This document shows, piece after piece, positions 28,112 to 48,272 of a DNA stretch of 64,000 bases. The notes under the pieces are model-generated. The model saw only the letters and a list, made by a program, of their open reading frames with translations, was not told the DNA's origin and ran no database searches. The position numbers were made by a program, and so were the translations under genes. Positions within the stretch are counted from its first letter, which is position 1. Each line of letters begins with the position of its first letter. This DNA comes from Octopus vulgaris. Its lineage: Eukaryota. The stretch covers positions 111,538,001 to 111,602,000 of the forward strand of contig OX597821.1 in the NCBI GenBank assembly GCA_951406725.2, in the 5' to 3' direction.

Positions 28112-28973
28112 AATCCTTTCTACTAAAGGCACAACGCCTGAAAATTTGGGGGAGGGGCCTAGTTGATTACATCGACCCCAGTGATTTTACAGTGGTTTCA
28201 TCGACCTCGAAAGGATGAAAGATAAAGTAGACCTGGGAGGAATTTGAACTCAGAACATAGCGACAGGCGAAATGCCGCTAAGTATTTCGTCCAGCGTGCT
28301 AACGGTTCTTATTTCTTTATTGCCCACAAGGGGCTAAACATAGAGGGAACAAACAAGGACAGACAAAGGGATTAAGTCGATTATATCGACCCCAGTGCGT
28401 AACTGGTACTTAATTTATTGACCCCGAAAGGATGAAATGCAAATTCGACCTCGGCGGAATTTGAACTTAGAACGTAGCGATAGGCGAAATACCTATTTCT
28501 TTACTACCCACAAGGGGCTAAACACAGAGGGGACAAACAAGGAGACAAACGGATTAAGTCGATTACATCGACCCCAGTGCGTAACTCGTACTTAGTTTAT
28601 CGACTCCGAAAGGATGAAAGGTAAAGTCGACCCGACGGAATTTGAACTGAGAACGTAACGGCAGACGAAATACCGCTAAGCATTTCGTCCGGCGTGCTAA
28701 CGATTCTTATTTCTTTATTGCCCACAAGAGGCTGAACATAGAGGGGACAAACAAGGACAGACAAAGGGATTAAGTCGATTAAATCGACCGCAGTGCGTAA
28801 CTGGTACTTAATTTATCGACCCCGAAAGGATGGAAGGCAAAGTCGACCTCGGCGGAATTTGAACTCAGAACGTAATGGCAGACGAAATACAGCTAAGCAT
28901 TTCGCCGGCCATGCTAACGTTTCTGCCAGCTCGCCGCCTGTAAGCGTGCTAACGATTCTGCCCGTTCGCTGCC
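28112..28973 (-). mobile_element. SINE A host copy containing a SINE A trimer
   Basis: Four tandem units; 17-bp duplication AGCGTGCTAACGRTTCT at 28293-28309 and 28943-28959. Confidence 0.88.
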
Positions 28974-44678: not shown

Positions 44679-45700
44679 AGGCCATTGAGAATGAAATGTC
44701 CGATTTTGAACTGAAACTTTATTTTACTTTATCTCAACAAAAAGCAATGTAGTTAAAGTATGCACCTAAACTATCAACACAATTTTGCCATTTTATCGGT
44801 ACCTTATTTATGCCGAGAGCGAAGAATTCTGAAGAGCAAGAGTTGATAAAATCACGAAAGGTTGTTTTTGCATCTTCTTCAGATTTGAAGTTTTCCCTTG
44901 CAAAGAATTATCTAATGCCCGGCAAACATGATGGTCAGTTGGTGTAAGGTCTGGTGAATATGGTGGATAACAGTGTATTTCCAAAGTTCAGTTCCTGTAA
45001 CTTGAGTAGCGTTCTTTGTGCAACATGTGGTTGAGCGTTGTCTTGCAAGAGAACTGGCCTGTCTCTGTTGACCAATCTCAGTTGTTTAATTGCATGTTCA
45101 CTCATCATTTTATCCAGTTGGTTGATGTTTACATCCGTTGTAATTGACTTACCAGGTCTCATGGAGCTGTAGTGGATGGCACCAGCGATGGACTACCAAA
45201 CAGACATTATTAGCCTTTTTTGGTGAATATTCTCTTTTGGATTATGTTTTGGTACTTCGTCTCCATCCAACCACCGTGCGAGAACGCTTGCTATTGTTGC
45301 AAAGAATCCATTTTTCCTCACACCTAACAACACGAGGAAAAAATGGTTCGCTTTTATCCCGTGACAGCGAAGAACAACAAGTATCGAGACGACGTGTCAC
45401 TTGATGCTCGTTCAGTTCGTATGGTAACCACTTGTCCAGCTTCTTTACCTTGCCGATTTGTTTCAGATAGTCCAATATAGTTGGAATCGAAACCTCAATC
45501 CTTGCTGCTAACTCACGCGTGGTTTGAGATGTATCCGCTTCTACTACAGCTTCCAGCTCATCAATATCCACCTTGATCTCAGGTTTAGTACGGGTTTCAT
45601 TTTCATGAGTAAAGTCACCAGATCGGAACTTCTCAAACCATCGCCGTACAGTGTGCTCATTCGCCTCATCTTCACCAAACACCTCATTGACGTTTCGAAT
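44677..45700 (-). mobile_element. Decayed mariner transposon
   Basis: TVRRWFEKFRSGD, KKLDKWLPYEL (WVPHEL-like), CEEKWI, LLQDNAQPHVA; frameshifted. Confidence 0.9.
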
Positions 45701-45854
45701 TTTTTTTTATCTATCAAAGAGTTCACAAAATTTGATTTACAAGAGAAAACTCACAATATAATCAGACACCATGAATTGCATTTCGAAAAGTGATTATGTC
45801 AGGATAAAACAGAGTTAAAGACTGTCAAAGAATGACCCGATATATATGTATGTA

Positions 45855-46198: not shown

Positions 46199-46203
<5 letters not shown>
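46022..46203 (+). mobile_element. Family D 3' fragment
   Basis: GCTCGAAATG...AACTGATGAAGGG...CCTGTACCCATACATGCAT, homologous to 31740-31940. Confidence 0.65.
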
Positions 46204-46252
<49 letters not shown>

Positions 46253-46258
<6 letters not shown>

Positions 46259-46333
46259 TCGAAATTAAGTTTTAGGAAAGCATAAGAATTAGATAATTAT
46301 GTCTTACCCAACTTCTTTTCTCATCAGCGTAGG
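46253..46333 (-). ncRNA. 5' part of a canonical type I hammerhead (3' part at 46744-46775, + strand)
   Basis: CCTACG-CTGATGA-GAAA...TTTC-GAAACATA on minus; GAAAC-ATAC-GT-C-CGTAGG on plus. Confidence 0.8.
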
Positions 46334-47068
46334 ACACTACAATTATGAATAATAGTATATTAAATTTCGAGGTACTAGAAGACATCATCTCAACTCAGTA
46401 TCAGAGGGAGCTAAAGCCGTTACCAGTATCACCAAATTCAAAGTGTGAATGAAAGTTTGTGTCACCAACCCCCTCCCACCAGCGTGCAGCCAAGACAAGA
46501 TGTTGTGGTCATTTACTGGGATGAAAAATGGTTATCAGTAATAATATAGGGTGAAATTAATTAATTTGGAATAATCATTAATTTCACCAAGTAGATTTCG
46601 GCATGTAAAAGCCTCATTCGAGGAAAGTTTAAGTAATACTAAGTAATTAAGGGTTTAGCAACGATTTGCCTCACCACACACCGAGTTTAGAAATAGCAGT
46701 CAAAGAGTTATAGCTATTCTTTCTACTAAAAGGGAGATCTCAGTAAAACTTAATTTCGAAACATACGTCCGTAGGTGACTTAAAATTGTATGATAGATTG
46801 CCGTCATTTCTTTCTCTCTTGCCTGTCTGTGTTTGCCTTTCAAGTGCTGTGGTTTTACTGAGATCTCCCTTTTAGTAGAAAGAATAGCTATAACTCTTTG
46901 ACTGCTATTTCTAAATTCGGTGTGTGGTGAGGCAAATCGTTGCTAAACCCTTAATTACTTAGTATTACTTAAACTTTCCTCGAATGAGGCTTTTACATGC
47001 CGAAATCTACTTGGTGAAATTAATGATTATTCCAAATTAATTAATTTCACCCTATATTATTACTGATA
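46253..47068. mobile_element. Young 5'-inverted hammerhead retroelement in (TA)n
   Basis: 217-bp inverted repeat 46533-46749 / 46852-47068 (1 mismatch); 22-bp inverted repeat 46253-46274 / 46744-46765. Confidence 0.8.
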
Positions 47069-47384
47069 TATATATATGTATATATATTGTTATGTATATC
47101 TATAATCAGTGCAAATAACGAGAAAATATAATGAAAGAAGAGAAGTTACAATGCTTTCTGAATGAGGAGAGATAAGCGTTTGTGATGAGAGATATATAAC
47201 GACTATTTTGGCAGAGTTGAAATGACGTAGGTATGTATATATACACATACAGGAAGTGAGCGAGGAACGAGACAGGTAATCTCGTTTACTTCCTGTTAAA
47301 AAGAGAAAAAGAAAATCGAACGGGGGAGAGTTCAGAATACAGCAACGGCATTGCATAGATACTACAAATTATCAGAGAGAGAGA

Positions 47385-47427
<43 letters not shown>

Positions 47428-47601
47428 GCATACGGATCGAACTGTTTACCACCTACCTTTGAACAATCGAGGACTGGACATGAAATTCTTTGGAGTATTA
47501 TTCTCCTGATTCTGTGATACAAATTTTCTGTTTTAAATTGATCTACATTAAAACCCTTACCTCATAATTTCACGTAAATTTGCGTTCCAAACAACTTAAT
47601 A

Positions 47602-48039
47602 ATCCTTTCTACTAAAGGTACAAGGCCTGAAATTTTGGGGATGGGGACTAGTCGATTACATCGACCCCAGTGTCTCAGTGGTACTCAGTTTATTGACCCC
47701 GAAAGGATGAAAGGTAAAGGTGACCTCGGCGGAATTTGAACTTAGAACGTGCAGATGGACGAAATCTCGCTAAGGATTTTCCCGGCGTGCTAACGATTCA
47801 TTTTTACTCTAGGCGCAAGACCCGAAATTTTGGGGGAAGGGCCACTCGACTAGACCGATCCCAGTATTCAACTGGTACTTAATTTATCGATCTCGAAAGG
47901 GTGAAAGGCAAAATCGACCTCGGCGGAATGTAAAGACAGACGAAATACCTATTTCTTTACTACCCACAAGGGGCTAAGCACAGAGGGGACAAACAAGGAC
48001 AGACAAACGGATTAAGTCGATTACATCGACCCCAGTGCG
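47602..48039 (-). mobile_element. Three tandem partial SINE A units
   Basis: Junctions near 47800 and at 47949. Confidence 0.85.
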
Positions 48040-48048
48040 ATATATATA

Positions 48049-48272
48049 TCACGTGATCACGTGACAGACCAGACCATCAGATGTTGTTACACATCGCTGG
48101 TCACAATGCGTTCGCATTGTTTTAGCCTTCAAATGACGCCACCCCGCTGCCTAAGCGAGCAGGCCAACAGAAGAAAGAGTGGGAGAAAGAGTGGTGAAAG
48201 AGTACAGCAGGGATCACCACCCCCCTGCCGGAGCCTCGTGGAGCTTTTAGGTGTTTTCGCTCAATAAACACT

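What the first reader, a model, noticed from the sequence alone, without database searches (positions are those of the whole stretch)
46253..47068. Inverted insert reassembles into a ~583-nt unit with a canonical hammerhead
Seen: the minus strand from 46749 to 46253 reads B-C-[CCTACG CTGATGA helix II GAAACATA], and the plus strand from 46744 to 47068 reads [GAAAC ATAC GTC CGTAGG]-D-B. Joined through their 22-nt overlap they give a type I hammerhead with a 6-bp helix I, CUGAUGA, G10.1-C11.1, GAAA and a GUC site. The implied template is B-C-HHR-D-B, with B = 217 nt and unit = 583 nt. Both outer ends finish in ATA against (TA)n, and the inner junction shares TAAAAC. Established: Penelope-like elements and retrozymes carry type I hammerheads, and twin priming gives this inversion geometry. 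Inference: a non-coding tandem or circular ribozyme RNA was reverse-transcribed through its cleavage site and twin-primed into (TA)n. I cannot tell whether this family is already described.
Basis: partly seen in the sequence, partly recalled or inferred. Interest (0 to 1): 0.85.

Follow-up and report, generated by a model that had tools for sequence, protein, structure and literature searches.

The report
Double-primed insertion of a hammerhead retrozyme
This 816-base stretch is one copy of a young, protein-free repeat family that carries a predicted self-cutting RNA (a hammerhead) and sits in TA repeats, and it was likely pasted in by a Penelope-like retrotransposon enzyme copying a circular RNA from two fixed start points, which gives a direct way to test how such 'retrozymes' spread.

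Summary
Observation confirmed. The insert is one copy of a dispersed, ORF-less family with a 583-nt circularly permuted unit and a type I hammerhead. There are 544 exact hammerhead 3' halves in the genome, arrays of up to 10 units, and two sister families. A motif shared across families has 12,087 hits.

The inversion is the family's normal insertion mode, not a one-off. 3' ends fall at two fixed RNA sites, A and B, about 100 nt apart, against (TA)n. Inverted inserts pair A with B in 45 of 47 cases; an intact Neptune-type Penelope-like element in this genome does so in 9 of 9.

Both arms, and successive units, of an insert are near-clones, and copying almost never stops at the cleavage site. 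This favours a circular monomer template (about 60%).

The window copy is atypical. One arm ends 4 nt before the cleavage site, at a G>A change that breaks the loop-III palindrome.

Rfam finds no hammerhead. Cleavage, circles and the partner enzyme are untested.

Verdict: new member of the known non-LTR retrozymes, with unusually clear mechanistic footprints. The scan earlier noted a similar Penelope-type repeat without a ribozyme in another genome.

The parts
46202..46252 (.). left (TA)n target tract
46253..46749 (-). minus arm, unit positions u83 to u579 (u1 = first base after the cleavage site): B, C and the 5' part of the hammerhead; its 3' end is non-standard, 4 nt short of the cleavage site
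46253..46333 (-). hammerhead 5' part: helix I strand CCTACG (46333-46328), core CTGATGA (46327-46321), 60-nt helix II domain closed by G10.1-C11.1 (46320-46261), GAAAC (46260-46256)
46334..46532 (-). segment C (u300-u498); non-coding, with a G-rich block shared by the three families aligned
46744..46749 (.). inner junction, 6-nt microhomology TAAAAC between the 5' ends of the two arms; the same junction (u558/u83) recurs in locus L172
46744..47068 (+). plus arm, u558 to u299: hammerhead 3' part, D and B; crosses the cleavage site and ends at the family's standard site B
46758..46775 (+). hammerhead 3' part: GAAAC, loop III ATAC (A46763 is G in most copies), GTC with predicted cleavage after C46769, helix I strand CGTAGG
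46880..47051 (+). conserved structured domain around the two priming sites: hairpin 46880-46912, long stem 46916-46924 with 46996-47004 enclosing a predicted unpaired loop that holds site A, AU-rich hairpin 47013-47051 just before site B
46965..46965 (+). site A (u196), the commonest 3' end of the family; read through in this copy
47068..47068 (+). site B (u299), 3' end of the plus arm
47069..47087 (.). right (TA)n target tract

Best explanation
The insert is a copy of an ORF-less, 583-nt hammerhead repeat family (a non-LTR retrozyme) that was likely written into a (TA)n tract by the reverse transcriptase/GIY-YIG protein of a Penelope-like element, likely copying a circular RNA monomer from both nicked target strands. 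Steps: (1) loci with two hammerheads are transcribed, self-cleave as loop-III dimers and are ligated to a 583-nt circle (inferred; shown for other animal retrozymes, not here). (2) The enzyme nicks both strands of (TA)n (target shown; enzyme inferred). (3) One strand primes at RNA site A and the other at site B, 100 nt downstream (end positions and the A+B pairing are shown; priming is inferred). (4) Each cDNA runs through the ribozyme junction, sometimes for several rounds (shown as sequence). (5) The two cDNA ends join, often by microhomology, giving two outward-facing arms (shown). In the window copy the plus arm started at B. The minus arm ends at u579, most likely because a G>A change in the template made an AUA that could pair with the target; a later ATA-to-(TA)n deletion of a longer arm fits equally well.
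For: Family and ends: 165 of 178 arm ends lie at A (99) or B (66), and 160 of 178 abut TA repeats. Inverted inserts pair A with B in 45 of 47 cases (binomial p 7e-12), and in 20 of 20 in the set fetched after the windows were defined. The 545-nt sister family gives 9 of 9. An intact Neptune-type element has two ends 38 nt apart in (TA)n and gives 9 of 9. One template per insert: arms differ by 7.5 per kb against 51.1 per kb between loci. In 20 loci that have both, successive units differ no more than arms do (7.2 vs 9.1 per kb); the sister family gives 2.1 vs 2.4 vs 11.5. L085, L219 and L222 have 0 differences between units while sharing variants seen at no other sampled locus. L294 has 4 hammerheads; its 3 complete units differ by 0-2 nt, lie 10% from the reference, and the array ends at A. 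No stop at the cleavage site: 64 of 64 listed hits on C1-C3 of a motif just downstream continue across it; 130 of 133 contexts in held loci match upstream; 5' ends show no excess at u1-30 (9 of 167). Ribozyme under selection: 7 of 14 pairs show two-sided changes across three families, including the loop-III palindrome. Junction overlap of 4 nt or more in 14 of 51, against 2% for random junctions. The literature proposes this cycle as a hypothesis (PMC7229834) and shows two internal start sites and extension of both strands for a Penelope-like protein (PMC11167929).
Against: No RNA evidence was obtained for cleavage, circles or expression. No partner was identified by sequence: neither blastn of 38 GIY-YIG loci nor tblastn of 224 loci found the unit serving as a pseudo-LTR, and the Neptune tail is 38 nt against about 100 nt here. 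L007 carries an 8-nt deletion of the cleavage site in both arms, and one arm (L214) begins at u3-5; both fit a linear or uncleavable template. The 10-mer array L080 has units differing by up to 12 nt in an alternating pattern, so DNA-level amplification also occurs. 'Private' variants are private only within about 120 sampled loci, and gene conversion between neighbouring repeats could mimic clonality. PMC11167929 found uncleaved RNA to be the main substrate in vitro. In the 2026 preprint 8 of 9 Xenopus retrozymes did not cleave. Rfam has no match. The predicted minimum-energy fold of the circle does not form the active hammerhead helix II.
Confidence: 0.6

Rival explanations
1. Same family and same Penelope-like enzyme, but the template is an uncleaved linear multimer read through from tandem source loci. 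The hammerhead is weak or acts later, and unit number is rebuilt by DNA-level array amplification.
For: Arrays exist (L080 10-mer, L083 and L084 trimers). L007 was copied from a template lacking the cleavage site in both arms. PMC11167929 reports unprocessed RNA as the dominant substrate. The window copy has a weakened loop-III palindrome (predicted duplex -2.1 vs -9.8 kcal/mol).
Against: Successive units are as alike as the two arms (7.2 vs 9.1 per kb) and share lineage variants (280 shared vs 137 differing sites in 47 loci), whereas neighbouring units of the L080 array differ by 5-12 nt. Covariation in the ribozyme implies that it is used.
Confidence: 0.24
2. The template is the self-cleaved linear monomer, and the reverse transcriptase jumps from its 5' end to its 3' end to make longer-than-unit cDNA.
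For: It would also give clonal units. The L007 deletion is what a jump on the 4-nt repeat flanking the site would leave. L214 starts at u3-5. The window's minus arm starts 4 nt from where a cleaved RNA would end.
Against: 544 junctions are exact. Only 3 of 133 contexts deviate. 5' ends do not pile up at the site.
Confidence: 0.1
3. The unit is just the pseudo-LTR of an autonomous Penelope-like element whose ORF-bearing copies were not sampled.
For: End pattern, target and inversion are those of Penelope-like elements. Only a few hundred of thousands of loci were read, and only 150 of 6136 GIY-YIG candidates were scored.
Against: All 70 arms longer than a unit (of 198) continue into the unit itself. 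The 5' flanks of 61 single arms share no common sequence. Arrays and two sister families are closed, ORF-less units.
Confidence: 0.03
4. A LINE enzyme copied the RNA, and the inversion is L1-type twin priming at a chance internal site.
For: Two outward arms with an inner microhomology is the twin-priming geometry (recalled from the L1 literature). The window's minus-arm end is at a non-standard site.
Against: No poly(A) or LINE-like tail. The ends are two fixed internal sites paired A+B in 45 of 47 inserts, as in the Penelope-like element of the same genome. The arms overlap by up to a whole unit.
Confidence: 0.03

Closest known systems
Non-LTR retrozymes of animals (Cervera and de la Pena 2020, PMC7229834; Li, Clavereau and Pollet 2026, 10.64898/2026.07.22.740005)
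   Same: ORF-less tandem unit with one type I hammerhead per unit; no LTR; low GC; dispersed monomers, dimers and arrays; Penelope-like elements in the same genome; the circle is predicted to be more structured than shuffles (z -4.4 and -8.3).
   Different: The unit is larger than the 150-450 nt typical of invertebrates, though within the 51-972 bp range of the 2026 preprint. Helix II is a 60-nt domain. Most copies are dispersed partial tandems, often inverted, in (TA)n. In the parts I read, these papers do not describe fixed A/B ends, inverted double-primed arms or clonality within inserts. Circles were shown there and are untested here.
Penelope-like elements with C-terminal GIY-YIG (Neptune; Poseidon PAc) (Craig et al. 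2021, PMC8557442; Frangieh et al. 2024, PMC11167929)
   Same: Partial tandems, an inverted 5'-truncated arm, a tail on only one end, (TA)n targets, a hammerhead upstream of the ends, and two internal start sites that define the tail.
   Different: No ORF. The tail is about 100 nt rather than 30-40 nt. No DNA similarity to the pseudo-LTR of the 781-aa Neptune-type family. The start sites here are TA-like and could pair with the target, whereas PAc starts without homology.
Canonical metazoan type I hammerhead (Cervera and de la Pena 2014, PMC4209133)
   Same: 6-bp helix I, full core, 4-bp base of helix II, 2-bp helix III with a palindromic 4-nt loop suited to dimer cleavage (family form).
   Different: Long helix II extension; loop-loop contacts not identified; no Rfam match; the window copy has lost the palindrome.
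L1 twin priming (recalled, no call)
   Same: Two target-primed cDNAs joined internally by microhomology.
   Different: Here both start sites are fixed and internal, the arms overlap widely, and there is no poly(A).

Membership tests
Non-LTR retrozyme | Head-to-tail repeats with a type I hammerhead in each unit | tested here: met
   L013 dimer, L083/L084 trimers, L294 with 4 hammerheads, L080 10-mer; the window copy itself holds only a split one
Non-LTR retrozyme | No protein coding | tested here: met
   longest stop-free frame 69 aa; 70 of 70 longer-than-unit arms loop back into the unit
Non-LTR retrozyme | No LTR structure; dispersed, mobile copies | tested here: met
   circularly permuted arms on many contigs; identical young copies. 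PBS and PPT were not searched for
Non-LTR retrozyme | RNA self-cleaves | not testable with these tools
   only conservation and covariation
Non-LTR retrozyme | Expressed as monomeric circular RNA | tested here: inconclusive
   no holder on record as RNA; contigs cannot show circles
Non-autonomous Penelope-like element | Two 3' ends defining a tail, inverted truncated arm, (TA)n target | tested here: met
   compared with the autonomous element
Non-autonomous Penelope-like element | Sequence similarity to the pseudo-LTR of an autonomous partner | tested here: inconclusive
   none among 38 GIY-YIG loci; most of the 6136 candidates were not examined
Autonomous Penelope-like element | RT plus GIY-YIG ORF joined to the repeat | tested here: not met
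Type I hammerhead | Core CUGANGA / GAAA / NUH with helices I, II and III | tested here: met
   94% of cells paired, 7 of 14 pairs with two-sided changes, 8 sequences from 3 related families; relatedness inflates the shuffle test
Type I hammerhead | Match to an Rfam hammerhead model | tested here: not met
   no hammerhead among 66 matches at E<=0.5 on L013, L219 and L074
Type I hammerhead | Tertiary contact between loops 1 and 2 | not tested
   not examined

The most novel reading that the evidence does not exclude
This genome holds a superfamily of over ten thousand retrozyme arms whose insertions record the whole Penelope mechanism. One enzyme complex binds one ribozyme-made RNA circle at a conserved stem-bounded template loop, reminiscent of a telomerase RNA. 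It primes the two target strands at two dedicated sites, A and B, and copies the circle in rolling-circle fashion. The A+B rule would explain the Penelope 'tail' and inverted arm in general. The chimera L151 would mark a young Neptune-type family as the enzyme donor, caught switching from its own RNA to the retrozyme at site A.
Probability: 0.4. Interest if true: 0.72.

Novelty: new member of a known kind. Interest (0 to 1): 0.52.

Why it matters
Retrozymes are proposed to spread when a Penelope-like reverse transcriptase copies their RNA circles into longer-than-unit cDNA, but the papers I read state this as a hypothesis. This family leaves countable footprints of that cycle: a fixed pair of start sites shared in kind with an intact Penelope-like element, clonal units within an insert, and read-through of the ribozyme junction. 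It also comes with ready reagents for a test: two young Neptune-type families, one with intact ORFs, and a conserved RNA domain with defined start sites. The A+B rule puts a number on the known remark that the Penelope tail is on one end only, and suggests that each target strand has its own start site.

Tried and rejected
Rfam on the window and on contiguous copies: no hammerhead, only low-complexity miRNA matches.

Sequencing runs: no RNA holder listed. Contigs of 4 runs guessed to be RNA (4 of 24 listed) covered all 30 bins, with deeper cover in D-B, loose ends into TA repeats at sites A and B, and no splice-like joint. This cannot show expression or circles and is not used as evidence. The idea of an intron from a GGTAAG in helix II to the pyrimidine tract in D got no support there.

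Partner by sequence: no link. The retrozyme pieces in L107 and L132 are separate TA-tract insertions. Naiad-like ORF fragments in flanks (L004, L007, L049; label recalled) were not pursued. Pfam PF26215 is not in the library.

L080 as master locus: rejected as the general source because its neighbouring units differ by 5-12 nt.

A-arm versus B-arm length: no difference (p 0.58, 39 inserts).

One search used a mis-registered structure string and is void; one search is the corrected count.

Literature: 'retrozyme'+'octopus', 'octopus'+'hammerhead ribozyme' (14), 'Penelope'+'octopus'+'transposable elements'+'hammerhead' (63), 'Penelope'+'tail'+'inverted'+'twin priming' (73) and 'retrozyme'+'target-primed'+'microsatellite'+'inverted' (76) listed no description of this family or of the A+B rule. 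Repbase and Dfam were not searchable, and the repeat library of PMC13282606 was not seen, so the family may exist there under another name.

Earlier scan notes: nothing for this genome or sequence.

Full report
1. Observation. The insert lies between two (TA)n tracts in a repeat-rich, gene-poor window of a 2.8-Gb, 227-contig genome. It looks like an octopus genome; that is my inference from the size and a SINE recalled from memory, not a call result. I number the unit from the base after the predicted cleavage site (u1 = 46770). The minus arm is u83-u579 and the plus arm is u558-u299.

2. The family. A search with the minus-arm segment gave 1580 candidates, of which 40 were scored, giving 41 full-length matches at 97-100%. 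The hammerhead halves are contiguous in 18 of the 19 other loci. The usual loop III is GTAC, with 544 exact copies of that 22-mer against 8 with the window's ATAC and 0 for the controls. Copies are circularly permuted pieces of one closed unit. Of 198 arms, 70 exceed a unit and all run back into it. There are trimers and a 10-mer, and an array with 4 hammerheads. Two sister families have units of about 585 nt and 545 nt, the latter with 40 near-identical scored copies. A motif shared across families has 12,087 exact hits, control 0.

3. The ribozyme. Across 8 sequences of three families, helix I changes from CCUACG/CGUAGG to CCCACG/CGUGGG to UGAG/CUCA. The triplet is GUC, GUA or GUU, and the loop-III palindrome is kept through a two-sided change. 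94% of cells pair, and 7 of 14 pairs change on both sides; slid controls pair 22-48%. These sequences are related, so this is support rather than a probability. The layout matches the canonical metazoan type I form, described as needing dimers (PMC4209133, passages), except for a 60-nt helix II. Rfam finds nothing. The window's G>A lowers the predicted loop-III duplex from -9.8 to -2.1 kcal/mol.

4. How copies end. I scored 119 insertions: 63 from loci found by similarity (set A), and 56 of 60 places taken in list order (set B; 4 failed the identity or length filter; one duplicated insertion in set A is counted twice). Of 178 ends, 99 lie at u176-202 (site A), 66 at u274-307 (site B) and 13 elsewhere; 160 abut TA repeats. 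The windows were drawn after seeing set A, and set B is the independent test: 76 of 80 ends fall in them. Of 59 inverted inserts, 47 have both ends at A or B, and 45 of these are A+B (set B: 20 of 20); 12 have a non-standard end. The 545-nt family gives 9 of 9. Inner junctions overlap by 4 nt or more in 14 of 51 cases against 2% at random, and the window's junction recurs in L172. Site A lies in a predicted unpaired loop bounded by a stem, and site B follows a long AU hairpin. The domain is conserved, with 3 of 29 pairs changed on both sides in 10 sequences.

5. The enzyme. The genome has many GIY-YIG loci (150 scored of 6136). They include a young family with a 479-aa ORF1 and an intact 781-aa RT/GIY-YIG frame ('Neptune-type' is my label from domain order and recalled motifs). 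It inserts in (TA)n with two ends 38 nt apart, and all 9 inverted copies seen pair one with the other (the query selected for end B on one arm). This is the tail, inverted arm and microsatellite bias described for Penelope-like elements (PMC8557442, passages). For the anole protein, both strands are nicked and extended and two internal start sites define the tail (PMC11167929, parts 1-2 of 4). I found no sequence link between the unit and a pseudo-LTR. One locus, L151, joins a retrozyme arm at site A, through 4 nt of TA, to the truncated 5' end of a second Neptune-type family. Both parts are identical to copies elsewhere, so they are equally young. Template switching and nested insertion both fit.

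6. The template. The two arms of an insert differ by 7.5 per kb (47 loci) against 51.1 between loci. In the 20 loci with both comparisons, successive units differ by 7.2 per kb and arms by 9.1; the 545-nt family gives 2.1, 2.4 and 11.5. L085, L219 and L222 show no difference between units while sharing variants found at no other sampled locus. So everything in an insert usually descends from one monomer sequence. Copying does not stop at the cleavage site. All 64 listed C1-C3 hits (of 278 in the genome) of a motif at u5-27 continue upstream, by matching places and to loci. 130 of 133 contexts in held loci match upstream (this set is redundant and enriched for ribozyme-bearing loci). A ligated circle explains both facts most simply. 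Against it stand L007 (site deleted in both arms), L214 (starts at u3-5), the heterogeneous L080 array, possible gene conversion, the limited sample, and the lack of RNA data.

7. The window copy. Its plus arm is standard (site B, crosses the junction). Its minus-arm end at u579 is unique among 178 ends and coincides with a variant found in 8 of 552 copies. The two are probably linked: priming at the new AUA, priming near the end of a cleaved RNA, or a later deletion to the (TA)n tract. I cannot separate these. The minus arm has three further private changes, while the arms differ at 1 of 215 sites, which suggests an aged source.

8. Known and new. The class is known. Non-LTR retrozymes are tandem type I hammerhead repeats expressed as circles in coral, mussel and axolotl, with Penelope-like elements proposed as the mobiliser (PMC7229834, parts 2-4 of 6). 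A 2026 preprint links them to pseudo-LTRs by co-occurrence and phylogeny (10.64898/2026.07.22.740005, parts 1-3 of 5). I saw no supplements of any paper. A recent octopus repeat annotation does not mention ribozymes in its main text (PMC13282606, passages); its library, unseen, may list this family. My searches listed no description of the family, the A+B rule or clonality within inserts.

9. Verdict. A real, well-described feature; a new member of a known kind. Odds: retrozyme-class family 0.95, Penelope-like machinery 0.9, circular template about 0.6. Interest 0.52, resting on the mechanistic footprints and on the direct test they allow.

Noticed in passing
L151:1150-1650 / L293 (G000:C1:155.32 Mb): Retrozyme arm ending at site A joined by 4 nt of TA to a 5'-truncated second Neptune-type element; both parts are 100% identical to copies elsewhere. 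Template switch or nested insertion.
   Followed up: partly
L219, L222, L225, L232 and one search hits: Very young 545-nt sister retrozyme family (931 candidates) with a short helix II closed by a U-U mismatch and up to three hammerheads per arm.
   Followed up: partly
L120-L129, L137, L233-L262: Young Neptune-type family with a 479-aa ORF1 and a 781-aa RT/GIY-YIG frame, a 38-nt tail, and a degenerate hammerhead-like motif (UUGAUAA ... GAAAC AUGU UA) upstream of its ends.
   Followed up: partly
L296-L319: Second, near-identical Neptune-type family (1045 candidates, 40 scored at about 100%), with open frames up to 784 aa in the loci held.
   Followed up: partly
window 34584-34500 (minus); also L083, L084, L089, L107: Another hammerhead-like motif family with a long helix II and a palindromic ATAT loop III; the window copy is degenerate.
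   Followed up: no
L108, L136, L285: Further hammerhead-like motifs present as inverted pairs, suggesting more families inserted the same way.
   Followed up: no
L080:2798-8512 (G000:C8:3.13 Mb): 10-unit array whose units alternate between two types, a sign of later DNA-level amplification of a dimer.
   Followed up: partly
L007: Both arms lack the same 8 nt at the cleavage site, between two CGTA repeats.
   Followed up: partly
L036: One insertion is present twice, 2734 bp apart, inside a larger duplication with long non-Penelope open frames.
   Followed up: no
window 45242-45706 (minus): 154-aa frame resembling a decayed mariner transposase (label recalled).
   Followed up: no
window 28310-28924 and 47600-48100: Copies and short tandem arrays of an abundant SINE (identity recalled, not tested).
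   Followed up: no
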